Assembly: GCA_050247235.1 (NCBI GenBank)
Contig: JBFWUN010000002.1
Location: 42,641 to 106,640, forward strand
Source: Gammaproteobacteria bacterium
GTDB taxonomy: Bacteria; Pseudomonadota; Gammaproteobacteria; Ga0077536
Direction: 5' to 3'
Length of the DNA stretch: 64,000 bases
The notes under the pieces are model-generated. The model was given only the letters and a program-made list of their open reading frames with translations. It was not told the DNA's origin and made no database searches. A program made the position numbers and the translations under genes. Within the stretch, counting starts at the first letter, position 1; every line of letters starts with the position of its first letter. This document shows positions 22,925 through 64,000 of this stretch, piece by piece.

Positions 22925-22970
22925 CGTGCTCAGGACGGATCCGGTCCCGGTTCCCGTCTCCCTGAAATGC

Positions 22971-22994: not shown

Positions 22995-23046
22995 GATCTC
23001 CGTTTCACCAGGCGTGTCGCGAGGACACGCCTGAATCGAATCGGAA

Positions 23047-25652: not shown

Positions 25653-25918
25653 TCGGGCTCCCCGAAGCGGTCGTTGACCAGCGCAACAAGCGCCTGCAGC
25701 GCGTCGTCAGCCCCCTCCCCCTCCGTCGTGATCCTGATCTCGTTTCCGCGCGATGCAGCCAACATCATGAGGCCCATGATACTCTTGCCGTTCACTTTCT
25801 TGCCCTGCTTCTCGACGGCCACTTCGCAGGTATACGCCGCCGCAGTCTGCATGAACTTCGCCGCGGCGCGCGCATGCAATCCCAGCTTGTTGACGATCTC
25901 CAACGTGACTGTAGGCAT
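25649..25918 (-). CDS. ptsH: HPr/NPr phosphocarrier protein
   Basis: 89 aa. NKLGLHARAAAKF (His15 region) and VNGKSIMGLMML (Ser46 region). Stop overlaps the ptsI start by 4 nt. Confidence 0.85.
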   Translation of the reverse strand: MPTVTLEIVNKLGLHARAAAKFMQTAAAYTCEVAVEKQGKKVNGKSIMGLMMLAASRGNEIRITTEGEGADDALQALVALVNDRFGEPE

Positions 25919-25924
25919 GTTCTG

Positions 25925-26785: not shown

Positions 26786-26881
26786 ATGAACGTCCGAAAA
26801 AGGGGCGCCGGGTTGTCCGCTCGCACTTGGTTGATCCCTGCTGGTCCGGTCGCGGATCCGCGTGTCTCAAGTTTCCCGTTG

Positions 26882-27196
26882 TCAGCCTTTACCGAGGGTA
26901 TCGCGCGCGTGGTGATCGGTAAGCTTCTCCTTGTGGCGTTTGACCTGGCGATCGAGCTTGTCGAGCATCAGGTCGATGGCCGCGTACATATCTTCGTGTT
27001 CACTCGTCGCGTGCATCGTGTTACCCGCCACGTGCACGGTTGCTTCGGCACGGTGTAGCTGTTTCTCCACACCGAGTACGAAATGCGCGTCGACCATGTG
27101 ATCGAAATGGCGCTGGATGCGTTGCAGCTTGGTCTTGATGTAATCATTGAGCGCGGGCGAGAGATCGAGGTGATGGCCGGTGATGTTGATTTGCAT
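26882..27196 (-). CDS. hpf: Ribosome hibernation promoting factor (short form)
   Basis: MQINITGHHLDLSPALNDYI..KL; 104 aa; directly downstream of rpoN. Confidence 0.9.
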   Translation of the reverse strand: MQINITGHHLDLSPALNDYIKTKLQRIQRHFDHMVDAHFVLGVEKQLHRAEATVHVAGNTMHATSEHEDMYAAIDLMLDKLDRQVKRHKEKLTDHHARDTLGKG

Positions 27197-27268
27197 ATTG
27201 CGGCTCCGAAGTTGAGGACTGGCGATAAGCTGAGCGACAGGACGGCCCGCCGACGCGGCCCGAAGGCG

Positions 27269-28780
27269 TCAGGCGAGCTTCTTGCGCTCATTCGACGGTG
27301 GAATCTGCATACCCTCGCGGTACTTGGCGACCGTGCGCCGTGCGACATTTACTCCCTGCTTCATCAATATCGACGCTATCTTACTGTCGCTCAACGGCTT
27401 GCAGGAACTCTCCGCGGCAATCAGCTTGCGAATCACGGCGCGGATGGCGGTGGAGGAGGCTTCCCCTCCGAGAGCAGTCCCCACGTGGCTCGAAAAGAAG
27501 TACTTCAGTTCAAACGTGCCGCGGGGGGTGTGCATGTACTTGCGCGTGGTCACGCGCGAGATGGTGGATTCGTGCATGCCCAGCGCCTCGGCGATGTCAT
27601 GTAGAACCAGCGGGCGCATTGCCTCCTCGCCATGTTCCAGGAACGCCCGCTGGCGTTCGACGATGGCACTGGCGACCCGCAGCAGCGTCTCACTGCGACT
27701 CTGCAGGCTCTTGATGAACCACTTGGCCTCCTGAAGATGCGTCCGCAGTGCGCTGCTGTCCTGCCCATTCTCTACGCGACGCACCATGCTCGCGTAATAC
27801 GGGTTGATTCGGACGTGCGGTATCGAATCGGGATTCAGTTCGACTTTCCAGCGTCCCTTGATCTTCCGCACGAACACGTCCGGGACCAGGTACTCGGTCA
27901 TCGCCGTCGCGTAGGCGGAACCCGGGCGCGGAGACAGGGACTGTACCAGCGCGATTACGGCGCGCAATTCATCCTGCGTCAGCTTCAGGCGCCGCATGAG
28001 CTGGTTGTAGTCGCGTCCTGCAAGGAGGTCGAGATAGCCCTCGCACAGCCGTATCGCTTCTGGACGCCAGGGCGTGGCCGGATCGCGCTGCCTGAGCTGG
28101 ATGAGAAGGCATTCTTTCAGGTCGCGCGCTGCAACGCCCACAGGTTCCATCGTCTGAATCTGTTTGAGCATCGCGGCGACTTCTTCGAGGAGGATCGGCT
28201 CCTGACCGGGGTCGGAGACAATCTCGAGAAGTTCCTCCAGGGTTGTTTCGAGGTAACCGTCGTCGTTGACGGCATCGATGATTGCCACGCCGATGCGTCG
28301 GTCCGTGTCGCCCAGCGGCAACAGGTTCAGCTGCCAGAGCAGGTGGTCGCGAAGCGACTCCTCGGCGCCGGCCTGGTTTTCGCGCTCGCCCCCTTCGTCG
28401 TGGGGACCGGCCGGCGCTCCCTGGGGCAGGGTGCTGTCAAACACTTCTTCCCAGTCGGAGTCCACGGGCATTTCTTCGGGAATGTCATCGGTGGTCGACG
28501 GGGCTGACGTTTCCCAGTCCTCGCCCTCCCCCCCGAATCCCTCGTCCGGTCCTTCGAACTCTTCCGTCGCCGCCGGGGTGGTCGCCGGCGCAACCCCGTC
28601 GAGCCCCAGATCGGGGAGGTCGCTGTCGTCCTCGAGCTCGAGCATCATGTTCGAGTCCAGGGCCTGCTGGACTTCGAGGCTGAGTTCCATTGACGACAGC
28701 TGCAGGAGCCGGATCGCCTGCTGCAGCTGAGGCGTCATGGTCAGCTGCTGGCCGAGCTTGAGTTGCAGTGATTGCTTCAT
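27269..28780 (-). CDS. rpoN: RNA polymerase sigma-54 factor
   Basis: N-terminal Gln/Leu-rich region ([23 protein letters not shown]), acidic linker, C-terminal RpoN box [10 protein letters not shown]. Confidence 0.95.
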
Positions 28781-28889
28781 CGTCTGATGCGAATTCGGAA
28801 CATATCTTGCATAGACGATTGTAGCGTAACCGGCACCCCGCCCAGGAAGCTCGGCACGCGATTTGCTGAGAAAGATCGCAAAATCCGAC

Positions 28890-29615
28890 TCAGAGGGTAA
28901 AGTCCTCGCCCAGGTAGACTTCGCGGACGTGCTCGTCCTCCAGGATTGCCGTGGGAGTTCCCTCGGCGATGATGCGACCGTCGTTCACGATGTAGGCGCG
29001 ATCACAAATTCCCAGGGTCTCCCGCACGTTGTGATCGGTGATGAGCACGCCGATGCCGAGCCGGCTCAGGTGCTGAATGATGCGACGGATGTCACCGACC
29101 GAAATCGGGTCCACTCCTGCGAACGGCTCATCGAGCAGGATGAATCGAGGCTGGGTCGCGAGCGCCCGCGCGATCTCGACCCGCCGACGTTCGCCGCCCG
29201 AGAGCGACATGCCCAGGTTCTTGCGCAGATGGCCGATGTGGAACTCGCGCAACAGTCCGTCCAGGCGCCGCGCGCGCTGCTCGGGATTCAATTCCGGGAC
29301 GATTTCGAGCACCGCGGCGATGTTCTCTTCGACGGTAAGCTTCCGAAATACCGAAGCCTCCTGTGGCAGATAACCGAGCCCCTTGCGGGCGCGCAGATCC
29401 ATCGGCAGTTCGGTGAGTTCGTCGTCGTCCAGATGGATGGTGCCGCCCTCGCCGGCGATCAGCCCGACGATCATATAGAAACTGGTGGTCTTGCCAGCTC
29501 CGTTCGGGCCCAGCAGTCCGATCACCTCTCCGCTGCTCACCGTGAGGCTCACGTCCTTCACGACCTGGCGTGACTTGTAGGTCTTGGACAGGTGTCGAAC
29601 GTTGAGTACGGTCAT
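28890..29615 (-). CDS. lptB: LPS export ABC transporter ATP-binding protein
   Basis: [39 protein letters not shown]; 241 aa; upstream of rpoN. Confidence 0.95.
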
Positions 29616-29667
29616 CGGGTGACGCCCCTGCCGCTACGCGCAGGCATCCACAGGCGTGCGGCCAGGC

Positions 29668-30207
29668 TCATTCGGCAGCTTTCTTCTTCGGCGGAATGAT
29701 GACCTTCACGCGCCCCGGCTTACTGACGGGGTCGGAGGTCCGCGGTGCGTTTGCGGCGCCTCGACCGGTAATGATGCTGCGGCGCGTGTCGTAATTGATC
29801 CGGTAACCCTCGAACAGTCGATCACCCTGGGTGAGGCGGGCCTTGTCGATGAGATAGAGGAGGCTCTTGCGCTGGTGATACTCGATCTGCAAACCCTCAC
29901 CCTCGATGTCCTGCTTGCCTCCGTCGGGCGTCTGTTTGAAGTACGCAGGCTTGCCCTCGAGGTATACGTCGACGAGCTGCCGGTCCTCGTCGAAATTGGC
30001 GATCAGCTTGTCCCCGGTCATGCGCATGGTGCCTTGTACAACCACGACATTCCCCGTGTAGGTCGTCCGTCCGGCGGCGTCATCGAGTTCGGCAAAGTCG
30101 GCTTCAATCTCGATAGGTTGCTCGACGTCAGTGCTCAGGCCACTGGCGAGACCGGCGTGGAGCAGCAGCGCGAGTGCTCCCAGCTTACGTGGAAGGCGGC
30201 TTCTCAT
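29668..30207 (-). CDS. lptA: LPS transport periplasmic protein LptA
   Basis: Trimmed to Met16 (signal peptide MRSRLPRKLGALALLLHAGLASG). OstA-like repeats (IEIEADFAELDD, TYTGNVVVVQGTMRMTGDKL). Confidence 0.8.
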   Translation of the reverse strand: MRSRLPRKLGALALLLHAGLASGLSTDVEQPIEIEADFAELDDAAGRTTYTGNVVVVQGTMRMTGDKLIANFDEDRQLVDVYLEGKPAYFKQTPDGGKQDIEGEGLQIEYHQRKSLLYLIDKARLTQGDRLFEGYRINYDTRRSIITGRGAANAPRTSDPVSKPGRVKVIIPPKKKAAE

Positions 30208-47644: not shown

Positions 47645-47720
47645 GCGCCGTTAGCTCAGCTGGTAGAGCAGCGGACTTTTAATCCGTTGGTCGTAGGTTC
47701 GATCCCTACACGGCGCACCA
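47645..47720 (+). tRNA. tRNA-Lys (anticodon UUU)
   Basis: 76-nt cloverleaf folded by eye: acceptor GCGCCGT/ACGGCGC, D arm GCTC/GAGC, anticodon stem GCGGA/TCCGT with loop CTTTTAA, T arm GTAGG-TTCGATC-CCTAC, encoded CCA. Confidence 0.9.
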
Positions 47721-55077: not shown

Positions 55078-56010
55078 TCAGTCCTCCAGCTGCTGGATCC
55101 CGTCCAGGAACCAGGTGGGCGCGTCGCTCCGCGCGGGCTTGGTGAAGTGCCAGACTTCGCGGACCTGCTGCGCCCTGGTGTGCGCGTCCTCGCGGAGGAT
55201 CGCGTCGAACAGCACCACGGCCTCCAGTTCGTCTCCCACTTCCCGCGCATCCAGCAGCTCGGCATCGAGTTTGAGCACCTCGGTGCGATTGTCCGCGGAG
55301 AGTCCGGCACTGCGCGTCTTCAGCTCCTCGAACATCGCCTCCGTGGACAGGGCGCGCAGGCGCGCGAAATCCCGTGCATCCCACGCTTTCTGCAGATCCC
55401 GGTACGCGTGGCGGGCGCCGTCCAGGAAAGATTGCTCGTCAAAGCCCGCGGGCCTGGCCGCGGCGTCCTCGTACAGCGTCGCCGGCGCCGAAGCGTCGGC
55501 CTGGAACCAGTCGCGGCTGTCGAGCGCCGTCCGGGCCGCGGTGTTGTCAGGAAGCACCCGCCGAGGCGCGACGGACTGCGAGTCGTCGGGTCGGGTCCGC
55601 GCATAAGCGGGCCGGGGTGACATGGCCTGCCCGCGCGCCGCGAACACGCGGTAGAGAAGGTAGGCGAGACCGCCGAAGACGAGCAGGTCCATGAAATTGA
55701 ACTGCTCAAACGCGCCGCCGAACAGCAGCGCCCCGAGCAGCCCGCCCAGCGCGAGGCCGCCGAGCATCCCCATCAGCCCCCCGCGGCGGGAAAGCTGCTG
55801 CCGGGCAGCCTGGTTCTGCTGCACGGCCTGCTGCTGACGCATGGACCGCGCCGGGGCCGCCTGTCGCTGGTAGGGTGAACTGAACGCGGACTTGCCACCG
55901 AACGAACCGCCGCCGCCGAGACGCTTCGCCTCGGCGTCCGGGATTGACCCCACACCGAGCAGCAGCGTCGCGCCCAGCACCATCAGGAAACCGAAGACTC
56001 TTTTCATCAT
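55078..56010 (-). CDS. Tim44-like domain membrane protein
   Basis: Signal/anchor, Gly-rich and Gln-rich region, TM segments (GGLLGALLFGG, LLVFGGLAYLLY), and a C-terminal segment FLDGARHAYRDLQKAWDARDF resembling Tim44-like domains (from memory). Confidence 0.6.
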   Translation of the reverse strand: MMKRVFGFLMVLGATLLLGVGSIPDAEAKRLGGGGSFGGKSAFSSPYQRQAAPARSMRQQQAVQQNQAARQQLSRRGGLMGMLGGLALGGLLGALLFGGAFEQFNFMDLLVFGGLAYLLYRVFAARGQAMSPRPAYARTRPDDSQSVAPRRVLPDNTAARTALDSRDWFQADASAPATLYEDAAARPAGFDEQSFLDGARHAYRDLQKAWDARDFARLRALSTEAMFEELKTRSAGLSADNRTEVLKLDAELLDAREVGDELEAVVLFDAILREDAHTRAQQVREVWHFTKPARSDAPTWFLDGIQQLED

Positions 56011-56188
56011 CCACCTCGTGAGTGCGCGGGATAGCGCGGACCCTGGCAGTCCGCGCGTGCTGCATGGTTGGACCCTGCAGTCTACACAGGTTCCCGCGGG
56101 CGCATTCAGGCCATAGGCGACCGGCCGCTAACCGCGAGGGCACCGTCGCGCCGCCACGATGACTCGCCCGCGCAGGATGAACGCCTAT

Positions 56189-56216
56189 TTGATTTATCAA
56201 TTGAACTTTATAAGCT
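56189..56216 (+). promoter_or_regulatory. AT-rich element upstream of the cytochrome cluster: near-palindrome plus a possible promoter
   Basis: TTGATTTATCAA at 56189-56200. TTGATT (56189-56194), 16 nt, TAAGCT (56211-56216). It sits in the only AT-rich patch (about 56185-56230) of the 321-nt intergenic region. Confidence 0.25.
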
Positions 56217-56331
56217 AACGTTCTAATTACGCGCGGACTAGGGGAACAGGTCCGCGCGGTGTCGCCATGCATCTCTTAAGGGGGGAACCTGGCGGGAGCC
56301 GATCTCCGGACCGGCCCGCTGCAGACACACC

Positions 56332-58065
56332 ATGACGCTGCCTCGACTCGCCTTCTCGTTATGCTGGCTCGTCTTTGCGCTTGCCGCGCCGCTGCCCGCC
56401 GCTGCCGCCGACGATCCGCACGCTCCGATCTTTGCAGAGACCGAGTACCCGTCCGCGATGCAGTGCGCGAGCTGTCATCCCAAGGTGTTCTGGGAATGGG
56501 CGGTCTCGAACCATGCGTATGCGTCGATTTCGCCGATGTTTCACAAGTTCGAACAGGCCATCAACGATTTCGCGTCCGGGACGATCGGCACGTTCTGCGT
56601 CCGCTGCCACCAGCAGATCGGCACGCAGCTGGGCGAGAAGCGCGAGGCGGCCCTGTGGGAACGTTCCCCGATCGCGCGCGAAGGCATCACCTGTATCACC
56701 TGCCACCGCGTGTCGACCCAGTTCGGCAAAGTCAACGGAGAACGCCACGTCGAGGGCGGCGACATCCACCAGCCCATCTACAACAGCGGGGCGGGCGCCG
56801 CGTACGGGGAAGTCGCTTCCCAGCCCGCGGAATTCGGCGTGGCGACGGCCGCCGGCCAGCCGGGAACTCCAATGCACGCCGCGCCCATCAAGTTCGAGCA
56901 GATCGGGCAGAGCGAGTTCTGCGTATCCTGCCACCAGGTTGCGGTTCACCCCGGCATCAAGCTGGAAGTCGTCTGGGAGCAGTACCGCGGGGCTCCGGCT
57001 GCCAAGGAAGGAATCACCTGCCAGCAGTGCCACATGGGCAAGGTCCCGGGTGAGGCCGAGGGCGGGTACGAAACCTGGCCGATCGCCGTGATCAATGGTC
57101 AGACCGTCGGCGATCCCACCCAGCGGCATTCCAACCACATGTTCTTCGGTCCCGGCTATCCCATTGCGCATCCAGGGATTTTTCCGTTCAACCCGCGCGC
57201 GATGCGCTGGTCGATCGACACCTGGCTGAAGTTCGATTACCGCGCGCCGTGGGGCGACCCGGCGTGGGAGGACCAGCTCGCGCGCGGCGAGGTCGAGGCC
57301 GAGTTCCCGGCGGAATGGACATCCCGCGAGGATCGCGAGGAGGCGCGCTACGTCATCTCGCTGAACACCAAGCTGCTCGAAGACAAGAAGCAGTCGCGCA
57401 TCGAGGTGATGGAGAACTCCATGCGCATCGACGGGCCGTTCTTCGACGGGGAGCTCAAGGTCGGCGAACCGCTCAAGCTGCATTACCGGATCACGAACGT
57501 GGACAAGGGGCACAACCTGCCGTCAGGTTCACTCGGCGCACAACCCGAACTGTGGTTCAACGTGGCGTTGATCGATCCCGATGGCCAGCGGGTCTGGGAA
57601 TCAGGTTACGTCGACGGCAACGGCGACATGGCCGACATCCATTCGCTCGACGTGGCGCAGGGCAAGGTGCCGTACGATCGGCAGCTCTTCAACCTGCAGA
57701 CCAAGTTCCTGACGACGAACCTCAAGGGCACCGACCGCGAGATGTACCTGCCGATCAATTTCGATTTCGACCAGCTGCCGCACATCCGGCCGCCGGGGGT
57801 GCCGACCACGGTGCTCAACCATCCGCCGTTCATCCGGATGGAAGGTCGCAGCCTGCCGCCGCTCGGCTCGCGCAAGGCGAAATACAAGATCCCGGGCTCG
57901 TTGCTGACCAAGCCGGGCAAGTACCGCCTGCAGTCACGGATGCGCAGCCGCGCGGAACCCATCTACTTCATGAAGTTCGTCGGGGCGACCGTGGACATGG
58001 AACAGGCCATCAACGAGTGGATGGTCGACATCCACCCGCACGCCGTCGAGTTCGAGGTCAAGTGA
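56332..58065 (+). CDS. Periplasmic pentaheme c-type cytochrome with a large heme-free C-terminal region
   Basis: Signal peptide MTLPRLAFSLCWLVFALAAPLPAAAA. Five CxxCH (CASCH at nt 56464-56478, CVRCH, CITCH, CVSCH, CQQCH), all within about the first 240 aa; 577 aa in total. Confidence 0.85.
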   Translation: MTLPRLAFSLCWLVFALAAPLPAAAADDPHAPIFAETEYPSAMQCASCHPKVFWEWAVSNHAYASISPMFHKFEQAINDFASGTIGTFCVRCHQQIGTQLGEKREAALWERSPIAREGITCITCHRVSTQFGKVNGERHVEGGDIHQPIYNSGAGAAYGEVASQPAEFGVATAAGQPGTPMHAAPIKFEQIGQSEFCVSCHQVAVHPGIKLEVVWEQYRGAPAAKEGITCQQCHMGKVPGEAEGGYETWPIAVINGQTVGDPTQRHSNHMFFGPGYPIAHPGIFPFNPRAMRWSIDTWLKFDYRAPWGDPAWEDQLARGEVEAEFPAEWTSREDREEARYVISLNTKLLEDKKQSRIEVMENSMRIDGPFFDGELKVGEPLKLHYRITNVDKGHNLPSGSLGAQPELWFNVALIDPDGQRVWESGYVDGNGDMADIHSLDVAQGKVPYDRQLFNLQTKFLTTNLKGTDREMYLPINFDFDQLPHIRPPGVPTTVLNHPPFIRMEGRSLPPLGSRKAKYKIPGSLLTKPGKYRLQSRMRSRAEPIYFMKFVGATVDMEQAINEWMVDIHPHAVEFEVK

Positions 58066-58067
58066 CG

Positions 58068-59696
58068 ATGCGCGGCGCCAATGCAAAGTACACCCGCCGC
58101 TGGGCGACATGGGCCGCGGCCTGCGCGCTCGGACTCGGCCAGGCGGCGCTCGCGGAAGTGCCGCGGCGTGGCCCGGGCACCGGGGCGCCGGCGATTCCCG
58201 AGCCGGCCGACGGACGGGTGCGCGGCGACCATGCGCATGCGCGCAAACCGGTGGAAATGTCGCCGGAGGCGCAATCCTCGACCCTGCAGCGTGAACTGTT
58301 CGGACCGGATCCGAGCTACGCCGACAAGCCCTACGACGTCGAGGCCCAGCTTGCGATCTATGGCGGCAAGCGCCCCGTCATCGGGCCGCGTCCGCCTATT
58401 GAATGGGGCTATCCGATGTACCAGGCAGGCGACATCGGCGCGGGCATCAACCTGTTCGGCGAGAAGAACCCGGCGCGCCCGCAGCTGCTCATGTTCGGTG
58501 ATCTCCGCATGGGTCCCGCATACAACGACAACGGCGCGCTCGACACCGCGCAGGCCGCCATCCGTCTCAACCTGAACATCGATATGCGCCTGACGGCGAC
58601 CGAGCGCTTCCACGTGTTCCTGCGCCCGTTCGACCGGGTGGAGAAGGGGCGCGTGACACGCGTCGAGTTCGGCGGCAACCAGCGGGACCTGTTCGGCGAT
58701 CACGAGATCCTGCTCGACGTGGAGCCTGAAGCGGCGTTCTTCGAGGGGGACCTCGGCCAGATCGCGGCGGGCCTCACCGACAAGTACAACCTCTACGACA
58801 TTCCCATCGCGTTCGGCCTGACACCGCTGTTCTTCCAGAATGGCATCTGGGTCGAGGACGCGATGATGGGCGGTGCCATCACGATCCCGGCGATGAACAG
58901 TCCGAAGCTCGACATCTCGAACATGGACATCACGTTCTTCAGCGGCTTCGATCGCGTGACGACGAAGGCGCTGCTCGAACCGAACGGCGTGTTCGACGAC
59001 CAGGATGCGCGGATCTTCGGTACCGCGATCTTCATCGAGATGCGCGAGTTCTACATCGAGGCGGGTTACGGCTACACGGATGACACCCGGGCGTCGGCGA
59101 CACTCGGCGATTTCAGCTATCACAACCTGACCGCGGCAATCACCAAGCGGTGGTTCGGCAAGCTGTCCAACTCGGTGCGCGTCGTCTGGAACACCGGCCA
59201 GGATCCCGGCGCGGGATTCACGCAGACGGCGGACGGATGGCTCCTGCTGGTCGAGAACTCCTGGATCACGCACCTGCCGTACACGCTGATCCCCTACGCG
59301 AACTTCTTCGTGGGACACGACAAGCCGCAGTCGCTGGCCCGCGATTTCGGTGCCGGCGGCATCCTGAAAAACACCGGGATCAACTTCGAGACCGACGGCC
59401 TGACCGGCTTTCCGAAGCTCGACGACACCGCGAACGACGTCGCCGGCGGCGCGGTGGGGATCCAGTACCTGTTCGCGCTCAACCAGCAGGTGGTGTTCGA
59501 GATCGCCGGATTGACGCCGCTCGGCAATGACATCCTCCCCGGCCGCCAGGCGCGCGGAGAACAGATCGCGTTCGGCGCCCGCTACCAGAAACCGCTGTCC
59601 AAGCGCTGGATCTTCCGCACCGACGCCATCTACGGCAGCCGTGAAAACGACGAAGACCTGGCCGGTATCCGCGCCGAGCTGCGACTGAAGTTCTAA
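58068..59696 (+). CDS. Putative outer-membrane beta-barrel protein (porin-like)
   Basis: ATG 58068, 2 nt after the upstream stop (within track ORF 57249..59696). Signal peptide ..ACALGLGQAALA. No Cys in the mature part. Many short alternating hydrophobic/polar stretches with aromatic ends. C-terminus AELRLKF (terminal Phe), typical of OMPs. Confidence 0.6.
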   Translation: MRGANAKYTRRWATWAAACALGLGQAALAEVPRRGPGTGAPAIPEPADGRVRGDHAHARKPVEMSPEAQSSTLQRELFGPDPSYADKPYDVEAQLAIYGGKRPVIGPRPPIEWGYPMYQAGDIGAGINLFGEKNPARPQLLMFGDLRMGPAYNDNGALDTAQAAIRLNLNIDMRLTATERFHVFLRPFDRVEKGRVTRVEFGGNQRDLFGDHEILLDVEPEAAFFEGDLGQIAAGLTDKYNLYDIPIAFGLTPLFFQNGIWVEDAMMGGAITIPAMNSPKLDISNMDITFFSGFDRVTTKALLEPNGVFDDQDARIFGTAIFIEMREFYIEAGYGYTDDTRASATLGDFSYHNLTAAITKRWFGKLSNSVRVVWNTGQDPGAGFTQTADGWLLLVENSWITHLPYTLIPYANFFVGHDKPQSLARDFGAGGILKNTGINFETDGLTGFPKLDDTANDVAGGAVGIQYLFALNQQVVFEIAGLTPLGNDILPGRQARGEQIAFGARYQKPLSKRWIFRTDAIYGSRENDEDLAGIRAELRLKF

Positions 59697-59701
59697 ACGC
59701 C

Positions 59702-61054
59702 GTGAAGCCATCAACCACGTTCGAACGCCGGATCCGCGCGCTGCTGACGAGCCTCTTGGCGTGCGGAATGTCCCTCACGGCCATGGCCACGGAGCCGCCG
59801 ACCCTGCCGCCCGAACGCGACGCCCGGTTCCTGGGCGTCGAGACCTGCGGGTCTTCGCAGTGTCACGGCTCGCCGGAACCGTGGCGCAACGCGACGGTGC
59901 TGATGAAGGAACGCCTGATCTGGGACGCGCACGACCAGCACTCGAAGGCGTACGCGTCGCTGTCGGGCGACGCCGGCAAGCGGATCGCGGAACGCCTGGG
60001 GATCGGCGACGCCACGCAGGCCGAGGAATGCCTGGTGTGTCATACCACGCACGTGCCGCCGGCGCGCCGCGGACGCGCGTTCACGGTGGAAGCCGGCGTC
60101 GGCTGCGAGTCGTGTCACGGGCCCGGCGGCAGCTTCCTGTCAACCCACGTGCAAATCACTTCGCAGCACGCGTCGAACATCGAAGCCGGGATGTTCCCGA
60201 CCACCGATCCGACCGCGCGCGCCGCGCTGTGCCTGTCCTGTCACCAGGGCGACACGGTACGCAAAGTCAGTCACCGGCTGTACGGCGCCGGCCATCCGCG
60301 CCTGCGCTTCGAGCTCGATACCTACAGCGTGCTCCAGCCCTATCACTTCAACCCGGACGCCGATTACCGGCGCCGCAAACCAGTCCCCAGCCATTTCCGG
60401 CTGTGGGCGGCGGGCCAGCTCCAGGCCGCGCGCAATCTCCTCGCGCTGACGGATCCGGCAGCCGCGCATGCGCGTGCAGGCCTGTTCCCTGAAATTGCGC
60501 AGTTCGACTGCCACGCCTGTCACCAGGGCATCCTCGACGATCCGGACTATCGCCCGCGGGCGGGGCTGCCGGCCGGCATGCCGACGCGCAACGATGCCCC
60601 GTTCGTCGTGCTGCGCGCGCTCGCCGCACTCCTCGAACCCGCCAGCGTGCCCGGTCTCGTTGACGCGACGCGCGCCTGGCAGCGTGCGCTGGCGACTCCG
60701 GCCGCGCAGGCCGACGCCGCGGCGGCACTCGCGCGCGCCGTGGAAACCCTCGGCACCGCCCTCGCCGCGCATCCCGACGCCGCGAGCGACGGCCGCACGG
60801 TGGTGGCCGCGCTGATCGCGCAGGCCACGCGCGAATCACCGCTGCCGTTCATCGCCGCCGAAAGCGTCGCGATGTCGCTGTCGACCTTGCTGACCGCGGA
60901 ATTCGAAGCCGGACGGCTGACACCCGAGCGCTACCGGGAGGTCGATGCGGCGCTGAATACCGTGTACGCCGCCGTGGGCAACGAACGCACCTATCGTGCC
61001 TCGGCCTACGCAACGGCCCTTGGAAGCGTGGCCACGGCCATGGGACAACAGTAG
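59702..61054 (+). CDS. Periplasmic multiheme c-type cytochrome (4 CxxCH + 1 CxxxxCH) with Ala-rich helical C-terminal domain, paralog A
   Basis: GTG start, signal peptide. CGSSQCH (nt 59846-59866), CLVCH, CESCH, CLSCH, CHACH. C-terminal ~190 aa without Cys. Confidence 0.8.
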   Translation: MKPSTTFERRIRALLTSLLACGMSLTAMATEPPTLPPERDARFLGVETCGSSQCHGSPEPWRNATVLMKERLIWDAHDQHSKAYASLSGDAGKRIAERLGIGDATQAEECLVCHTTHVPPARRGRAFTVEAGVGCESCHGPGGSFLSTHVQITSQHASNIEAGMFPTTDPTARAALCLSCHQGDTVRKVSHRLYGAGHPRLRFELDTYSVLQPYHFNPDADYRRRKPVPSHFRLWAAGQLQAARNLLALTDPAAAHARAGLFPEIAQFDCHACHQGILDDPDYRPRAGLPAGMPTRNDAPFVVLRALAALLEPASVPGLVDATRAWQRALATPAAQADAAAALARAVETLGTALAAHPDAASDGRTVVAALIAQATRESPLPFIAAESVAMSLSTLLTAEFEAGRLTPERYREVDAALNTVYAAVGNERTYRASAYATALGSVATAMGQQ

Positions 61055-61079
61055 CGCGCAACGCCGGGAATCCAACGAG

Positions 61080-62444
61080 ATGAGCCGCCTATCCGCCCTT
61101 TCCGCCCCGTTCCCTTCCCGCGCGCGCCGCGCGCCGCTGGTCATGCTGCTGTTCGCGTGGGTGTTCACCGCGACGGCGACGGCCCAGGAGGCCGACGCGG
61201 ATCCGACGGCGGGTCCGTCCAAGTATCTCGGCGTCGTGACCTGTTCGGGCTCCACCTGTCATGGCGCGCCGCGTCCGTCACCCGACGCACGCGTGCTGCA
61301 GAACGAATTCATCACCTGGCACCGCGAGGACGCGCACGCCAAGGCGTACCGCGTGCTGCTCGAGGAAAAGGGCAAGCGCATCGCCGAGAACCTCGGCATC
61401 GCGAATGCCGCCGCGGCGCCGGAGTGCCTGAACTGCCATACGAACAATGCGCCGGTCGAGCTGCGCGGCAAACGCTTCCAGCTCGCCGACGGGGTGGGTT
61501 GCGAATCCTGCCACGGCCCGGCCTCCAAGTGGCTCGGCCTGCACGTCACGGGCGAAGCGAGTCGCGAGGAAAACCTGAAGGCCGGGATGTACCGTACCGA
61601 GGATCCGGTCGCACGCGCCGCGCTGTGCCAGGGCTGCCACGTCGGCGACAACAGCAAGTTCGCCACGCACCGGATCATGGGCGCCGGTCATCCGCGGCTG
61701 GCCTTCGAGCTCGATACCTTCACGATGCTGCAGCCGGCGCATTACCGCGCTGATGCCGATTACCGCAGCCGCAAGCGCATCGCCTCGCACGTGCAGGTGT
61801 GGGCGATCGGACAGGCGGCGGCGGCGAAACGCACCTTGGACCTGTTCGTCGGCGGCAAGTGGCAGGGCACGGGGGTGATGCCCGAGTTCGCGTTCTTCGA
61901 CTGCCATGCATGCCACCACCCGATGGACACGCCGCGCTGGGCGCCGCGGGCGACCACCGGCCTGCCGCCGGGTGTCGTGCGCCTGAACGACGCCAACCTG
62001 CTGATGCTGCTGTACCTGACCAGGGCGATCGAGCCCGCCACGGCCGAGTCCCTCCACCAGGGCCTGCTGGCACTGCACAAGGCGAGCACCGAATCACCCG
62101 CCGCCACGCAGACGGCGGCGAAAGCGCTCGCGGCGACCGTGGCGCAGGCCGAGAGCCAGGTACGCGGGCACGGCTTCAGTGCCGATGAGACGCGCACCAT
62201 CCTGGGCAGCATCGTCGACGGTGGAATCGGGGGCGACTACCGCGACTTCGCGGCCGCCGAGCAGGCCATCATGGCTATCCACGCGCTGACGGATTCGCTG
62301 CGCGACGCGGGCGCCCACGACGACACCAAGGCCGCGGCGCTGGACGCCCGCATCAAGGTTCTCTACACCGTGCTCGAGAACCAGAACACTTACGACCCGG
62401 CGCGTTTCAGGAGTGAACTCGAGACGCTCAAGGCGTCGCTGTAA
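61080..62444 (+). CDS. Periplasmic multiheme c-type cytochrome (4 CxxCH + 1 CxxxxCH), paralog B
   Basis: ATG 61080 within track ORF 60996..62444; signal peptide. CSGSTCH, CLNCH, CESCH, CQGCH, CHACH, collinear with paralog A (shared GKRIAE.LGI, GVGCESCHGP, GAGHPRL.FELDT, FDCHACH). Confidence 0.8.
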   Translation: MSRLSALSAPFPSRARRAPLVMLLFAWVFTATATAQEADADPTAGPSKYLGVVTCSGSTCHGAPRPSPDARVLQNEFITWHREDAHAKAYRVLLEEKGKRIAENLGIANAAAAPECLNCHTNNAPVELRGKRFQLADGVGCESCHGPASKWLGLHVTGEASREENLKAGMYRTEDPVARAALCQGCHVGDNSKFATHRIMGAGHPRLAFELDTFTMLQPAHYRADADYRSRKRIASHVQVWAIGQAAAAKRTLDLFVGGKWQGTGVMPEFAFFDCHACHHPMDTPRWAPRATTGLPPGVVRLNDANLLMLLYLTRAIEPATAESLHQGLLALHKASTESPAATQTAAKALAATVAQAESQVRGHGFSADETRTILGSIVDGGIGGDYRDFAAAEQAIMAIHALTDSLRDAGAHDDTKAAALDARIKVLYTVLENQNTYDPARFRSELETLKASL

Positions 62445-62461
62445 CCAGGCGACAACGTCTC

Positions 62462-64000
62462 ATGGCCAACGAGCGATTCACCATCGCGATCGTCGGTGCC
62501 GGGCCGGGCGGGCTGAGCGCGGCGGCCCGCGCCGCCGACACCGGCATCCCGCACATCCTGCTGGAGGCCTCGCCGCAGATCGCGAACACGATCTTCCGCT
62601 ACCAGAAGGGCAAGCACGTGATGGCGGAGCCATCGGTGCTGCCGCTGCGCGCCGCGGTGGACTTCGAAGCCGGAACGCGTGAGCGGATCCTCAAGGCCTG
62701 GAACGAGGGCCTCACGCGGAGCGGTGCCAACGTCCGCTTCGGGTCGGAGGTGGTGGCGATCACGGGCGCGCGCGGCCAGTTCGTGCTCAAGCTCTCCGAC
62801 GGCTATTCAGTGCATGCCGAGCACGTCGTGCTCGCAATCGGACTGCAGGGCAACCTGCGCAAGCTCGAGGTGCCCGGAGACAGCCTGCCCGGGGTCCAGT
62901 ACCAGCTCGACGATCCGGACGAATACCGCAACGAAACCATCGTCGTGGTCGGCGCGGGCGATGCCGCTATCGAGAACGCGCTCGCGCTGGCGCCGCACAA
63001 CACCGTCACCATCCTGAACCGCCGCGACGAGTTTTCGCGCGCAAAGGACGGCAATCTCAAGGGCATCACGCGGGCGCTCGAGGCCGGCGAACTGGAATGC
63101 CTGTACAACGCGTCGCCCGAGGCCGTCGAAGCGCTGCCGGAAGGCGATCCGAGCGGTCACCGCCTGCGCTTCCGCATCAAAACCAAGGAAGGGTCCACCG
63201 AAGTGCCGTGCGACCGCATCGTCGCGCGCCTCGGTGCGCTGCCGCCGCGCAAGTTCGTCGAATCGAGCGGGATCGAGTTTCCGAACGACGATCCGGCCGC
63301 GGTCCCGATGGTATCGCCGCGCTACGAGTCGAACGTGCCGGGGCTGTACGTGATCGGCGCACTCGCGGGGTACCCGCTGATCAAGCAATGCATCAACCAG
63401 GGCTACGAGGTCGTCGAATACATCTGCGGCCGGAACGTGGAACCCGCGGACGAAGCGCTGCTGCGCGCGAAGTTCGCGCATGTGCCGGGACTGTCCAAGG
63501 TGGACGCCGCGATCGAGACGATCCGCCGGACCATCCCGCTGTTCGCGGGACTCACCCCGCTGCAGCTGCGTGAATTCCTGCTCGATTCCGACATCCGCAC
63601 GCCGGCGCCGGGCGAGGCGGTGGTGGAGTACAACGACTACACCAACACGTTCTTCTCGATCCTGCGTGGCTCGGTGTTCATCGAGATCGACCCGAACAAT
63701 CCCTCGCGCACGGTGCCGCTCGCGGAAGGCAAGTTCTTCGGCGAGATGTCGCTGATTTCCGGACGGCGTCGTTCGGCGACGATCCGCGCCGGGGAGAACT
63801 GCGTGCTGATCGAGACGCCGCGGCGGTCGATGAACAAGCTGATCCAGTCCGTGGAAGCCGTGAAGCGCGAGATCGACGAAGCCTTCCTGCTGCGCGCGAT
63901 CCGCATGCACATTGCGCCCGAGGTGCCTGAGGACGACCTCGTCGAAGTGGTGCACACCGCGCGTATCCGGCAGTTCGCGCCCGGCGAAGCGCTGTTCAAC
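62462..64000 (+). CDS. FAD/NAD(P)-dependent pyridine nucleotide oxidoreductase fused to cyclic-nucleotide-binding domain(s); 3' end outside window
   Basis: Not in the supplied ORF track (no stop in the window); translated by eye from ATG 62462, with 513 codons open to nt 64000. IAIVGAGPGG, VVVGAGDAAIENA, GLYVIGALAG. The cNMP phosphate-binding cassette FFGEMSLISGRRRSATIRAG is at nt 63734-63793, and a second cNMP-like domain begins near the window end. No signal peptide. Confidence 0.8.
   Translation, partial: MANERFTIAIVGAGPGGLSAAARAADTGIPHILLEASPQIANTIFRYQKGKHVMAEPSVLPLRAAVDFEAGTRERILKAWNEGLTRSGANVRFGSEVVAITGARGQFVLKLSDGYSVHAEHVVLAIGLQGNLRKLEVPGDSLPGVQYQLDDPDEYRNETIVVVGAGDAAIENALALAPHNTVTILNRRDEFSRAKDGNLKGITRALEAGELECLYNASPEAVEALPEGDPSGHRLRFRIKTKEGSTEVPCDRIVARLGALPPRKFVESSGIEFPNDDPAAVPMVSPRYESNVPGLYVIGALAGYPLIKQCINQGYEVVEYICGRNVEPADEALLRAKFAHVPGLSKVDAAIETIRRTIPLFAGLTPLQLREFLLDSDIRTPAPGEAVVEYNDYTNTFFSILRGSVFIEIDPNNPSRTVPLAEGKFFGEMSLISGRRRSATIRAGENCVLIETPRRSMNKLIQSVEAVKREIDEAFLLRAIRMHIAPEVPEDDLVEVVHTARIRQFAPGEALFN

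What the first reader, a model, noticed from the sequence alone, without database searches (positions are those of the whole stretch)
56332..64000. Compact multiheme-cytochrome / outer-membrane-barrel / cNMP-regulated flavoprotein cluster: candidate uncharacterised trans-envelope redox module
Five co-directional genes are separated by only 2, 5, 25 and 17 nt, downstream of a 321-nt intergenic region. (i) A secreted pentaheme cytochrome, 577 aa. (ii) A 542-aa secreted protein with no Cys in its mature part and an OMP-type C-terminus (…LRLKF). (iii, iv) Two paralogous secreted cytochromes of about 450 aa, each with 4 CxxCH plus one CxxxxCH. (v) A cytoplasmic FAD/NAD(P) oxidoreductase fused to cNMP-binding domains, which runs off the window. 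A barrel gene nested among periplasmic multiheme cytochrome genes is the hallmark of porin-cytochrome conduits (MtrAB, PioAB/MtoAB, Geobacter Pcc). Here, however, the cytochromes carry 5 hemes rather than 8-10, the barrel is shorter than MtrB-type barrels, and the gene order and partners match none of those systems as I know them. The alternative is a periplasmic multiheme enzyme system with a dedicated outer-membrane substrate channel. Either way the combination is unusual inside an otherwise housekeeping and aerobic-catabolism context.
Basis: partly seen in the sequence, partly recalled or inferred. Interest (0 to 1): 0.85.

Follow-up and report, generated by a model that had tools for sequence, protein, structure and literature searches.

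The report
Ptd-type multihaem cytochrome and porin operon
This is a variant of the widespread but functionally uncharacterised "ptd" operon, which most likely carries electrons from cytoplasmic NAD(P)H across the inner membrane to a five-haem periplasmic enzyme that sits under its own outer-membrane pore.

Summary
The cluster continues past the window end as a seven-gene operon.

It is not undescribed. A 2023/24 preprint named the same gene set ptdABCDEFG and called its function "completely unknown". The window carries a variant of it:
- the NAD(P)H flavoprotein is of a different fold and is fused to the cNMP/Fe-S protein;
- there are two pentahaem carriers instead of one tetrahaem;
- the decahaem carries an FHA domain.

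New results here:
- **PtdA (577 aa)** is a remote homologue of MccSep/ExtKL, the Geobacter pentahaem selenoenzyme polysulfide reductase. All five haem sites are collinear. An invariant Ser replaces the catalytic Sec, and there is no haem-ligating Cys.
- **The barrel** is modelled with about 18 strands, like AlgE/OprD and unlike MtrB. It lies next to PtdA in 64 of 65 genomes and is fused to a PtdA-like domain in one natural protein.
- **The 311-aa membrane protein** has four invariant His spaced as in di-haem cytochromes b.
- **Two unrelated NAD(P)H flavoproteins** fill the same slot in different lineages.

Best reading: an NAD(P)H-fed periplasmic reductase with a dedicated outer-membrane channel, not an MtrAB-type conduit. 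The substrate is unknown.

The parts
56011..56331 (+). 321-nt intergenic region upstream of the operon. It is shared with a divergently transcribed Tim44-like gene (55078-56010, minus strand).
   Evidence: No sigma-70 consensus match was found and no Rfam match. A promoter here is inferred, not shown.
56332..58065 (+). g1, PtdA-like. A secreted pentahaem cytochrome (haem domain about residues 30-240), an insertion of about 120 aa, and a C-terminal Ig-like beta-sandwich that carries the invariant loop GH394NLPSGS400LGAQPE. It is a remote homologue of MccSep/ExtKL in which Ser replaces Sec. I take it to be the terminal enzyme.
   Evidence: Haem motifs. AF2 secondary structure. hhalign against 65 MccSep sequences gives Prob 97.3%, E 2e-11, with all five CxxCH collinear and the Sec position aligned to S400. 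The loop is invariant apart from L396 (F or M in some), with S400 present, in 69 of 69 homologues; 66 of 69 have no non-haem Cys. Sequence hit to PDB 5ZE8: E 6e-7.
58068..59696 (+). g2, PtdB-like. An outer-membrane beta-barrel of about 18 strands (residues about 139-541) with a conserved N-terminal periplasmic extension of about 110 aa that the model leaves disordered.
   Evidence: AF2 model: pLDDT 79.8. Foldseek top hits are MOMP, chitoporin, AlgE and OccK/OprD, E 2e-10 to 1e-7, about 10% identity. No Pfam, NCBIfam or PDB sequence hit. Adjacent to PtdA in 64 of 65 loci. Naturally fused to a PtdA-like domain in P0269.
59702..61054 (+). g3. A periplasmic c554-like pentahaem cytochrome (4 CxxCH plus 1 CxxxxCH) with a helical C-terminal half. 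It is a paralogue of g4 and corresponds to PtdD. I take it to be an electron carrier.
   Evidence: Pfam Cytochrome_C554, E 1e-9. PDB 1BVB, E 2e-5. 40% identity to g4. The LLAC lipobox seen in this copy is not conserved in orthologues (3 of 27).
61080..62444 (+). g4. A second periplasmic c554-like pentahaem cytochrome, PtdD-like. This is the paralogue that is retained in more distant genomes.
   Evidence: Pfam Cytochrome_C554, E 2e-10. A homologue lies in 70 of 84 loci.
62462..64000 (+). g5, cut by the window end (full length 803 aa, ending at window-equivalent 64873). A cytoplasmic thioredoxin-reductase-fold FAD/NAD(P)H domain without a redox CxxC, two cNMP-binding domains with intact phosphate-binding cassettes, and a C-terminal module with four Cys-motif groups of the DmsB/FdnH/NarH type. 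It corresponds to PtdC function fused to PtdE.
   Evidence: Pfam on the window part and on the full-length protein. Sequence and Cys motifs. The ~800-aa architecture is conserved in the homologues listed.

Best explanation
The region is the first five genes of a seven-gene operon. It is a variant of the ptdABCDEFG cluster. I read it as an electron-export chain that runs from NAD(P)H to a periplasmic enzyme, without needing the quinone pool.

Proposed path (inferred):
1. In the cytoplasm, g5 oxidises NAD(P)H at a thioredoxin-reductase-fold flavin domain. It passes the electrons along four [4Fe-4S] clusters. Its two cNMP-binding domains gate or tune this step.
2. The clusters hand electrons to g6, a five-helix membrane protein that holds two stacked b haems. 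His82 and His289 lie on the cytoplasmic side, His96 and His303 on the periplasmic side.
3. g6 reduces g7, a decahaem cytochrome. One helix anchors g7 in the membrane, and its FHA domain faces the cytoplasm.
4. The soluble c554-like cytochromes g3 and g4 carry the electrons across the periplasm to g1 (PtdA).
5. PtdA is a MccSep-like enzyme with a pentahaem cap and an Ig-like stem. It is held at the periplasmic mouth of its own 18-strand barrel g2 (PtdB).
6. PtdA reduces a small solute that enters through that barrel.

What is shown: the domain composition, the conserved residues, the conserved linkage, the PtdA-PtdB fusion, and the homology to MccSep.

What is inferred: the order of electron carriers, the outward direction of flow, and the physical docking of the parts.

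What is unknown: the substrate. PtdA lacks both the Sec and the haem-ligating Cys of MccSep, so its chemistry cannot be MccSep's Se/S-based polysulfide cleavage.
For: 1. **Same components as ptd.** The cluster holds a pentahaem with beta-sandwich, a porin, an FAD/NAD(P) oxidoreductase, a periplasmic c554-type cytochrome, a cNMP/4Fe-4S protein, a transmembrane protein and a decahaem.

2. **PtdA resembles an enzyme rather than a carrier.**
   - Identity across Alpha-, Beta- and Gammaproteobacteria, Verrucomicrobia and Planctomycetes is 56-85%. The carriers range from 23% to 82%.
   - The C-terminal domain holds many invariant residues.
   - hhalign against MccSep gives Prob 97.3%, E 2e-11, over 340 columns, with five collinear haem sites and the catalytic-loop motif in register. 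Control comparisons between other multihaem families reached only 1.7e-7 to 1.8e-3, and reversed MccSep gave 0.55.
   - MccSep is a periplasmic enzyme with a substrate channel.

3. **Barrel type and linkage.** The model has about 18 strands and resembles substrate-channel barrels. PtdA and PtdB are adjacent in 64 of 65 loci. They are fused in P0269, which was seen on two contigs.

4. **g6 looks like a di-haem cytochrome b.** Four His are present in every one of 48 sequences that covers the position (2 are truncated at the last helix). They are spaced i/i+14 on two helices. Sub-threshold hits to cytochrome b561 and ferric-reductase Pfam families recur among members.

5. **NAD(P)H is the cytoplasmic partner.**
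   - Class-1 loci fuse a TrxR-fold flavin domain to the Fe-S protein.
   - Class-2 loci lack that domain. They encode instead an unrelated FNR-type FAD/NAD plus 2Fe-2S protein directly after the barrel gene, in 29 loci.

6. **The inner-membrane trio is portable.** In Fontimonas and a Lysobacteraceae genome it sits beside a different putative outer-membrane module. In Ferrigenium it sits beside nirK.

7. **One transcription unit is likely.** No terminator-like site lies on the coding strand within g1-g7, and the genes are 2-25 nt apart.
Against: - No experiment bears on any step.
- The PtdA structure model is poor (pLDDT 64). Foldseek found nothing at E <= 0.001.
- The C-terminal domains of PtdA and MccSep, compared alone, give only E 0.008. 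The Sec-to-Ser correspondence therefore rests on the full-length alignment and the motif.
- Multihaem families give background profile hits of 1e-6 to 1e-7 to each other.
- The direction of electron flow rests only on thermodynamic reasoning.
- A quinone site in g6 cannot be excluded.
- Four of 25 well-flanked loci carry PtdAB without the inner-membrane module within 10 kb, so PtdAB can use other partners.
- The fusion protein and the Cyc2 precedent leave open electron transfer through the pore rather than substrate import.
- The FHA domain seems to have Ala where the phosphothreonine-binding Ser usually lies (by eye), so its regulatory role is uncertain.
Confidence: 0.55

Rival explanations
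1. It is a porin-cytochrome conduit for extracellular electron transfer in the MtrAB, PioAB or Pcc sense, or in the Cyc2 sense. Electrons cross the outer membrane through or along the PtdB barrel. They go to, or come from, an insoluble or extracellular partner such as Fe(III), Mn(IV), humics or Fe(II). PtdA is the haem protein that plugs or lines the pore.
For: - A barrel gene sits among multihaem cytochrome genes, and the ptd authors proposed this reading.
- A natural PtdA-PtdB fusion has the same overall layout as the fused cytochrome-porin Cyc2.
- PtdA has a highly conserved segment (residues 459-503) that AF2 leaves unstructured and that could fold only against a partner.
- In other genomes the same inner-membrane module sits next to a different barrel-like protein and a large LVIVD-repeat protein with at least 10 haems.
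Against: - The barrel is modelled with about 18 strands and resembles AlgE, OprD and MOMP. MtrB-type barrels that sheathe a decahaem have 26 strands (established knowledge). MtrB is not among the 50 matches listed.
- PtdA is a 577-aa two-domain protein, too large to sit inside such a barrel.
- PtdA has a type-I signal peptide, with no usable lipobox and no surface-anchoring feature.
- The cluster encodes no extracellular cytochrome.
- PtdA is homologous to a periplasmic soluble enzyme.
Confidence: 0.13
2. The same hardware runs in the opposite direction. PtdA oxidises a periplasmic or imported inorganic donor, such as a sulfur species, hydroxylamine, NO or Fe(II). Electrons then flow through PtdD and PtdG into the cell, either to the respiratory chain or through g6 and g5 to make NAD(P)H.
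For: - The nearest solved relative, T. tepidum cytochrome c552, has been suggested to act in sulfur metabolism.
- ptd genes occur in nitrite oxidisers and in sulfur-oxidiser-like MAGs from oxygen-deficient zones, and ptdAB are highly transcribed there.
- The related inner-membrane trio occurs in an Fe(II) oxidiser.
- Homologues also occur in Ferrovibrio.
Against: - Moving electrons from c-type haems inward to NAD(P)+ is uphill in redox potential. It also runs against the membrane potential, which is negative inside. No energy-coupling subunit is present (inference from established bioenergetics).
- Two independent acquisitions of an NAD(P)H-type flavoprotein fit a donor role better.
- The cluster is present in ordinary aerobic heterotrophs such as Solimonas terrae.
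Confidence: 0.2
3. The genes are a chance juxtaposition of unrelated cytochrome, porin and flavoprotein genes and have no joint function.
For: Nothing specific. Four of 25 well-flanked loci have only the PtdA-PtdB pair within 10 kb.
Against: - Co-localisation persists across several phyla even though gene order and strand are rearranged.
- A gene fusion joins PtdA and PtdB.
- Spacing within the cluster is 2-25 nt.
Confidence: 0.01

Closest known systems
ptdABCDEFG cluster of marine Alphaproteobacteria UBA11136 and others (bioRxiv 10.1101/2023.11.21.568154; described from sequence only, function unknown)
   Same: The seven functional components are the same. They are a pentahaem with C-terminal beta-sandwich (PtdA = g1), a porin (PtdB = g2), an FAD/NAD(P) oxidoreductase, a periplasmic c554-type cytochrome (PtdD, similar to g3/g4), a cNMP plus 4Fe-4S protein (PtdE = the C-terminal two thirds of g5), a transmembrane protein (PtdF = g6) and a decahaem (PtdG = g7).
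   Different: - The NAD(P)H module here has a thioredoxin-reductase fold and is fused to PtdE. In ptd it is a separate FNR plus 2Fe-2S protein (PtdC).
- The window has two pentahaem carriers instead of one tetrahaem.
- PtdG carries an N-terminal FHA domain instead of a Cys-rich region.
- The gene order differs.
- The closest relatives of the window are labelled from groundwater or glacier-fed streams rather than saline habitats.
Geobacter sulfurreducens extHIJKLMNOPQS cluster with MccSep (ExtKL) polysulfide/selenite reductase and porin-like ExtI (PMC13510729, PMC5877670)
   Same: - Both have a periplasmic pentahaem cap plus an Ig-like stem protein.
- The five CxxCH sites are collinear.
- Both carry the loop motif TN-x-x-GH-x-[LI]-P-x-G-[U/S].
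- In both, the gene lies beside an outer-membrane barrel gene and in one cluster with multihaem carriers and a membrane cytochrome b/Fe-S module.
   Different: - PtdA has Ser at the Sec/Cys position and no Cys to ligate haem 2.
- PtdA has an insertion of about 120 aa and a longer C-terminus.
- PtdB and ExtI show no detectable sequence relationship.
- The inner-membrane module here is flavoprotein/Fe-S, di-haem b and decahaem. In Geobacter it is Rieske/cytochrome b.
MtrCAB, PioAB/MtoAB and Geobacter Pcc porin-cytochrome conduits
   Same: A barrel gene sits among multihaem cytochrome genes. The overall logic of moving electrons from the inner membrane towards the outer membrane is shared.
   Different: - The barrel here has about 18 strands, not 20-26.
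- There is no MtrA-like compact decahaem that could insert into the barrel.
- There is no lipoprotein surface cytochrome.
- There is no CymA/NapC-type quinol dehydrogenase.
Cyc2 fused cytochrome-porin of Fe(II) oxidisers
   Same: A small barrel is paired with a cytochrome at its periplasmic N-terminus. One natural PtdA-PtdB fusion has the same layout.
   Different: Cyc2 has one haem and a 16-strand barrel in a single polypeptide. Here the cytochrome is a separate 577-aa five-haem two-domain protein. No sequence similarity was found.
Four-cluster Fe-S subunit plus di-haem b membrane anchor (NarH/NarI, FdnH/FdnI), and NOX-like MsrQ-Fre electron export
   Same: The C-terminus of g5 has four Cys-motif groups like DmsB, FdnH and NarH. 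g6 has four His on two helices like NarI, FdnI and cytochrome b561. As proposed for MsrQ-Fre, cytoplasmic NAD(P)H would feed a periplasmic reductase through membrane b haems (the comparison rests on established knowledge).
   Different: No significant sequence match to any of these families was found; the best Pfam E-value is 0.011. The flavin, cNMP and Fe-S domains are fused in one protein. The output is a decahaem c, not a molybdoenzyme or quinone.
FHA-nonahaem cytochrome ('NHC') with a 5-TM protein and a [4Fe-4S] protein in Ferrigenium straubiae (bioRxiv 10.64898/2026.01.22.701106)
   Same: The three-gene inner-membrane architecture matches g7, g6 and g5. That preprint also reports it as novel and of unknown function.
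   Different: That locus is described next to nirK and an SHP-like gene, not next to PtdA/PtdB.

Membership tests
ptdABCDEFG cluster | [quoted passage not shown] | tested here: met
   g1 has five CxxCH and an AF2-predicted beta-sandwich. g2 is a barrel of about 18 strands. The two genes are adjacent in 64 of 65 loci.
ptdABCDEFG cluster | A cNMP-binding protein with 4Fe-4S clusters, a transmembrane protein and a decahaem cytochrome in the same cluster | tested here: met
   g5 (cNMP x2 plus Fer4), g6 (5 TM) and g7 (10 CxxCH) lie directly downstream on the same contig.
ptdABCDEFG cluster | [quoted passage not shown] | tested here: not met
   The window's operon has no FNR-type PtdC. A TrxR-fold flavin domain is fused to g5 instead, and the carriers are two pentahaems. 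The function is present but the gene family differs, so this is a variant.
MccSep (ExtKL) polysulfide reductase family | Five collinear CxxCH motifs in an N-terminal domain, a C-terminal Ig-like domain, and a periplasmic signal peptide | tested here: met
   hhalign gives Prob 97.3%, E 2e-11, with all five motifs aligned. AF2 predicts a beta-sandwich. A signal peptide is present.
MccSep (ExtKL) polysulfide reductase family | A catalytic Sec or Cys in the loop G-H-x-[IL]-P-D-G-[U/C] | tested here: not met
   The aligned residue is Ser400. It is invariant in 69 of 69 PtdA homologues.
MccSep (ExtKL) polysulfide reductase family | A conserved Cys as distal ligand of haem 2 | tested here: not met
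   The mature protein has no Cys outside the CxxCH motifs. 66 of 69 homologues have none.
MtrAB/PioAB/Pcc porin-cytochrome complex | A barrel wide enough (about 20-26 strands) to sheathe a multihaem cytochrome | tested here: not met
   The AF2 model has about 18 strands. The best Foldseek matches are 18-strand barrels, and MtrB is not among the 50 matches listed.
MtrAB/PioAB/Pcc porin-cytochrome complex | A compact periplasmic MtrA/PioA-type 8-10-haem cytochrome, with or without a surface lipoprotein cytochrome | tested here: not met
   The NCBIfam DmsE/MtrA family scores 28 bits against a cut-off of 192. The OmcA/MtrC family scores far below its cut-off. g1 and g4 have no lipobox, and the lipobox in g3 is not conserved.
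MtrAB/PioAB/Pcc porin-cytochrome complex | The cytochrome is physically inserted in the barrel lumen | not testable with these tools
Di-haem transmembrane cytochrome b (b561, NarI, FdnI or ferric-reductase type) | Two pairs of His on two transmembrane helices, spaced about 13-14 residues apart | tested here: met
   His82/His96 and His289/His303 are present in every one of 48 sequences that covers them; 2 sequences are truncated at the last helix.
Di-haem transmembrane cytochrome b (b561, NarI, FdnI or ferric-reductase type) | A significant sequence or profile match to a known family | tested here: inconclusive
   Only sub-threshold hits were found: PF01292 in 7 of 15 members (best E 0.011) and PF01794 in 2 of 15. 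There was no meaningful PDB sequence match (best E about 1, to unrelated soluble proteins).
Di-haem transmembrane cytochrome b (b561, NarI, FdnI or ferric-reductase type) | Actual binding of b haem | not testable with these tools
   This needs spectroscopy on the purified protein.

The most novel reading that the evidence does not exclude
Aquatic and soil aerobes carry a bacterial 'NOX-like' electron-export line that is cyclic-nucleotide-gated and independent of the quinone pool. It runs from an NAD(P)H flavoprotein through four Fe-S clusters and a di-haem b to a decahaem c. The line is portable and plugs into interchangeable outer modules. In the ptd version it feeds a Ser-type relative of the MccSep selenoenzyme, docked under its own outer-membrane pore. 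That relative performs a so-far-unknown haem-based reduction of a dissolved environmental substrate. Candidates are Fe(III) chelates, iodate, an N- or S-oxyanion, or O2 to give extracellular superoxide. If so, one widespread gene set (at least 522 species-level genomes) would explain a redox flux in oxic and low-oxygen waters whose enzyme is currently unassigned.
Probability: 0.3. Interest if true: 0.85.

Novelty: new variant of a known kind. Interest (0 to 1): 0.6.

Why it matters
**Distribution.** The ptd gene set occurs in at least 522 species-level genomes of Alpha-, Beta- and Gammaproteobacteria and some Planctomycetes and Verrucomicrobia. The 80 best-matching loci are all from uncultured genomes. 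ptdAB are reported as highly transcribed in a marine oxygen-deficient zone. Nobody knows what the genes do.

**Three handles for experiments:**
1. The conserved core protein is a relative of a newly solved haem selenoenzyme, but with both catalytic chalcogen residues replaced. This points to an enzyme, not a wire, and names the loop and the haem to mutate.
2. The outer-membrane partner is a narrow channel-type barrel. In one lineage it is fused to the enzyme. This predicts a docked enzyme-pore pair.
3. Two unrelated NAD(P)H flavoproteins occupy the same slot. This predicts an NAD(P)H-driven route to the periplasm that bypasses quinone and is gated by cyclic nucleotide.

**Tractability.** Cultured carriers exist. 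Solimonas terrae has the whole set. Fontimonas thermophila has the inner-membrane module with another outer module.

Tried and rejected
- **Barrel, sequence searches.** Pfam and NCBIfam gave no hit. The PDB sequence search gave only noise.
- **PtdA C-terminal domain.** A PDB sequence search with this domain alone found nothing.
- **PtdA, fold search.** The model was too poor in the haem domain (pLDDT 64). Only weak Ig-like or CARDB-like matches appeared, none at E <= 0.001. I use this only to say that the C-terminus is a beta-sandwich.
- **PtdB versus ExtI.** A PtdB profile found nothing among ORFs in 111 MccSep-bearing metagenome loci. The two porins are analogous at best.
- **g3 as an outer-membrane lipoprotein.** The LLAC lipobox in this copy is present in only 3 of 27 orthologues. 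Rejected.
- **Leader and promoter.** No Rfam hit and no sigma-70 consensus were found.
- **g6 family profile against the PDB.** No meaningful hit.
- **MccSep paper supplements.** I looked for MccSep sequences there, but no supplementary files are held. I recovered 65 Sec-type sequences by a degenerate DNA pattern scan of metagenomes instead.
- **C-terminal domains of PtdA and MccSep compared alone.** E 0.008, in the same register but not significant. I therefore do not claim independent proof for that domain.
- **Known multihaem enzymes.** I considered NrfA-, HAO- or octahaem-reductase-type enzymes and rejected them. Only fragmentary sub-threshold hits appeared, and there is no CxxCK motif.

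Full report
**1.

- The five genes, their lengths, haem motifs, gene spacings (2, 5, 25 and 17 nt) and the 321-nt upstream gap are exactly as described.
- g1 (56332-58065) has five CxxCH motifs. Its only other Cys is in the signal peptide.
- g2 (58068-59696) has one Cys, also in the signal peptide, and ends ...LRLKF.
- g3 and g4 each have four CxxCH plus one CxxxxCH, and they are 40% identical.
- g5 starts at 62462 and leaves the window.

**2. The operon is longer than the window**

- The window lies on NCBI contig JBFXJS010000003.1 of assembly GCA_050174655.1 (locus L004, where window coordinate = L004 coordinate + 48067).
- g5 is 803 aa. It has these parts:
  - a thioredoxin-reductase-fold FAD/NAD(P)H domain with no redox-active CxxC;
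  - two cNMP-binding domains whose phosphate-binding cassettes look intact (FGEMSLISGRRRSAT and VGELALLTDSPRTAT);
  - a C-terminal module with four Cys-motif groups of the DmsB/FdnH/NarH kind.
- g6 follows after 21 nt. It is 311 aa, has five hydrophobic helices and matches no Pfam family.
- g7 follows after another 7 nt. It is 561 aa, with an N-terminal FHA-like domain, one transmembrane helix and ten CxxCH motifs.
- No terminator-like site lies on the coding strand inside g1-g7.

**3. Conservation across genomes**

- The barrel family has more than 2,200 members in the protein database. Every member that carries a name is called 'hypothetical protein'.
- A scan of one genome per species found at least 522 species with a relative. 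The best 80 are all metagenome-assembled genomes. Most are Gamma-, Alpha- and Betaproteobacteria, and a few are labelled Verrucomicrobia or Phycisphaerae.
- A g1 homologue lies directly beside the barrel gene in 64 of the 65 loci that have at least 2 kb of upstream sequence.
- Outside the closest relatives, g1 is the best-conserved component at 56-72% identity. The barrel is then at 48-61%, g5 at 26-63% and the carriers at 23-47%.
- Of 25 loci with at least 8 kb on both sides, 21 also carry homologues of g5, g6 and g7.
- Gene order and strand vary between lineages. That argues for selection on co-localisation, not just inheritance of one arrangement.

**4. Two classes of locus**

- Class 1 has the 800-aa g5 with the fused flavin domain and an FHA-decahaem. 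The window belongs to this class, which accounts for 13 of the 21 complete loci.
- Class 2 (8 of the 21) differs in four ways:
  - its cNMP/Fe-S protein lacks the flavin domain;
  - its decahaem has a Cys-rich N-terminus instead of FHA;
  - its carrier is a tetrahaem;
  - an unrelated membrane-anchored FNR-type protein (FAD_binding_6, NAD_binding_1, Fer2) is encoded right after the barrel gene, in 29 loci.
- Two non-homologous NAD(P)H flavoproteins in the same functional slot are the strongest indication that NAD(P)(H) is the cytoplasmic partner.

**5. Prior description**

- Class 2 is what a 2023/24 preprint named ptdABCDEFG, for 'penta/tetra/deca-haem'. The authors list exactly these seven components.
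- They report high transcription of ptdAB in Alphaproteobacteria of the Eastern Tropical North Pacific oxygen-deficient zone.
- They suggest a porin-cytochrome role or a nitrogen-cycle role, and they state that the function 'remains completely unknown'.
- No later paper in the held library uses the name.
- A 2026 preprint on Ferrigenium straubiae independently reports an FHA-multihaem cytochrome with a 5-TM protein and a [4Fe-4S] protein as novel and unexplained.
- The finding is therefore a variant of a named but uncharacterised system.

**6. What PtdA (g1) is**

- By sequence, its haem domain hits the pentahaem cytochrome c552 of Thermochromatium tepidum (PDB 5ZE8, E 6e-7). The ptd authors also noted this relative.
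- A cable-bacteria study groups c552 with Geobacter ExtKL and GSU2801 in a 'pentahaem cytochrome' family, defined as a pentahaem domain plus an Ig-like domain.
- In August 2026 ExtKL was characterised as MccSep:
  - it is a periplasmic homotetrameric polysulfide (and selenite) reductase;
  - its active site is haem 2, which is His/Cys ligated;
  - a selenocysteine on a loop of the Ig-like domain completes the active site;
  - the published Sec peptide is VEMTNHAGHSIPDGUPTPNR.
- I recovered 65 Sec-type MccSep sequences from metagenomes with a degenerate DNA pattern for that loop.
- Profile-profile alignment with 69 PtdA sequences gives Prob 97.3%, E 2e-11, over 340 columns. All five CxxCH motifs are collinear. 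PtdA 'ITNVDKGH394NLPSGS400' aligns with MccSep 'EITN-KAGHSIPDGU'.
- The controls were weaker:
  - reversed MccSep gave E 0.55;
  - PtdA against PtdD or PtdG gave about 1e-6 to 1e-7;
  - PtdD or PtdG against MccSep gave 2e-3 and 6e-5.
- The C-terminal domains alone align in the same register, but only at E 0.008. AF2 predicts that domain as a beta-sandwich.
- I therefore regard superfamily membership as likely, at about 0.8. PtdA fails the two catalytic criteria for MccSep itself:
  - the Sec/Cys position is an invariant Ser (69 of 69);
  - no Cys is available to ligate haem 2.
- The loop GHN[LFM]PSGSLGAQPE is otherwise invariant. That argues for a conserved active or binding site with different chemistry.

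**7. What PtdB (g2) is**

- AF2 (pLDDT 79.8) gives a barrel of about 18 strands from residue 139 to the C-terminus. The conserved N-terminal 110-130 residues are left unstructured.
- The best Foldseek matches are monomeric 18-strand channels: MOMP, chitoporin, AlgE and OccK/OprD. E-values are 2e-10 to 1e-7 at about 10% identity. MtrB is not among the 50 matches listed.
- PtdB has no detectable relationship to ExtI, the porin beside MccSep.
- One natural 1,098-aa protein (P0269, seen on two contigs) fuses a PtdA-like domain (residues 22-537) to a PtdB-like barrel. hhalign of residues 628-1069 against the PtdB alignment gives Prob 99.4%, E 1.9e-21.
- A barrel's N-terminus is periplasmic. The fusion therefore places PtdA at the periplasmic mouth of the pore and supports a physical PtdA-PtdB pair.

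**8. The inner-membrane module**

- In 48 distinct g6/PtdF sequences from both classes, His82 and His96 are invariant. His289 and His303 are present in all 46 sequences that reach the last helix.
- The pairs are spaced i/i+14 on helix 3 and helix 5. With an N-in topology (charge distribution, read by eye), one pair of His lies near each membrane face. This is the classical pattern for two stacked b haems.
- Sub-threshold Pfam hits to prokaryotic cytochrome b561 (7 of 15 members) and ferric reductase (2 of 15) recur.
- Nothing in the PDB matches by sequence.
- The g5 family is very large, with more than 6,800 hits at E <= 1e-10.
- In Fontimonas thermophila and a Lysobacteraceae genome, the g4-like, g5, g6 and g7 genes sit next to a different outer set. 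PtdA and PtdB are absent there. That set comprises:
  - an HbpS-like lipoprotein;
  - a 611-616-aa protein with an OMP-type C-terminus;
  - a large LVIVD-repeat protein with at least 10 haems.
- The inner-membrane module therefore looks like a portable electron-supply unit.

**9. Mechanism and its limits**

- The proposed chain is: NAD(P)H, FAD, four [4Fe-4S] clusters, two b haems, decahaem c, c554-like carriers, PtdA, and finally the substrate delivered through PtdB.
- The outward direction is inferred. It is downhill in potential and is aided by a membrane potential that is negative inside. The reverse direction is disfavoured on both counts, and no coupling subunit is visible.
- The substrate is not known.
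- A Cyc2-like or Mtr-like conduit remains possible (0.13). So does an oxidative role for PtdA (0.2).

**10. Verdict**

- The module is not undescribed, however, and the MtrAB analogy is the weaker reading.
- The new elements from this analysis are:
  - the link to MccSep with loss of both catalytic chalcogens;
  - the barrel class;
  - the PtdA-PtdB fusion;
  - the di-haem b signature;
  - the non-orthologous replacement of the NAD(P)H module.
- A cultured carrier of the complete class-1 set, Solimonas terrae, is available for experiments.

Noticed in passing
L196 8729-12025 (protein P0269; also L197 1030-4326): A natural single-polypeptide fusion of a PtdA-like pentahaem protein and a PtdB-like barrel, 1,098 aa. 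Its loop reads GHNVPTGF, so Phe stands at the Sec/Ser position. Two further multihaem genes (746 and 539 aa) follow. g7 gives only a weak match (26% identity) to the 539-aa protein, and there is no flavoprotein or di-haem b module within reach.
   Followed up: partly
L001 10001-12532 (protein P0063 and about 25 similar clusters): In a marine clade the PtdB barrel carries an N-terminal extension of about 300 aa with two Cds6_C NTF2-like domains (PF24125, E 6e-33). Their role at the periplasmic mouth of the pore is unexplained.
   Followed up: partly
L199 8587-22400 and L200 10001-22403: In Fontimonas thermophila and a Lysobacteraceae MAG, the flavo-Fe-S/di-haem b/FHA-decahaem module sits beside a different putative outer-membrane module. 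The c554-like carrier is also present in L199. The outer module comprises an HbpS-like protein (677-681 aa, with a lipobox), a 611-616-aa protein ending ...LTLTY or ...LVFTF, and an LVIVD-repeat protein of more than 1,070 aa with at least 10 haems. PtdA and PtdB are absent.
   Followed up: partly
Proteins P0242, P0245, P0246 and P0247: Some PtdA homologues carry N-terminal extensions of 340-650 aa that are rich in Pro, Gln and Ala and begin with a hydrophobic anchor. Their loop reads GHNLPTASLGAQPQ in three of them and GHNMPSGSLGAQPQ in P0242. They also have extra Cys residues. This may be a membrane-tethered form.
   Followed up: no
L084 6088-8115 (class-2 PtdG): The class-2 decahaem has a Cys-rich cytoplasmic N-terminus (many CG, GxC and CxxC-like repeats) where class 1 has the FHA domain. 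This could be a metal- or cluster-binding region.
   Followed up: no
Window-equivalent 67607-69696 (L004 19540-21629), just beyond the window: Directly after the operon come an inorganic pyrophosphatase, a Tat-signal Rieske protein (199 aa) and a PQQ-dependent dehydrogenase. The Rieske and pyrophosphatase genes are not found next to ptd in the other loci.
   Followed up: partly
window 59702-59767: The start of g3 is ambiguous. The GTG start gives a signal peptide with an LLAC lipobox. A public gene call starts 22 codons later and would leave the cytochrome without a signal peptide. Orthologues have ordinary type-I signal peptides.
   Followed up: yes
window 20001-30000, 23398-23468 and 47645-47720: A stretch of lower G+C (0.59-0.63, against 0.64-0.70 elsewhere). 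A 24-copy CGG repeat at 23398-23468. The window's single tRNA gene, tRNA-Lys(UUU), lies at 47645-47720.
   Followed up: no
L085-L195 (metagenome loci carrying Sec-type MccSep): The degenerate pattern for GHSIPDG-UGA-PTP found 111 metagenome stretches. 68 of them give full-length five-haem read-through proteins of 420-460 aa. Rieske-protein genes lie nearby in at least 14 of the loci, as in the Geobacter ext cluster.
   Followed up: partly
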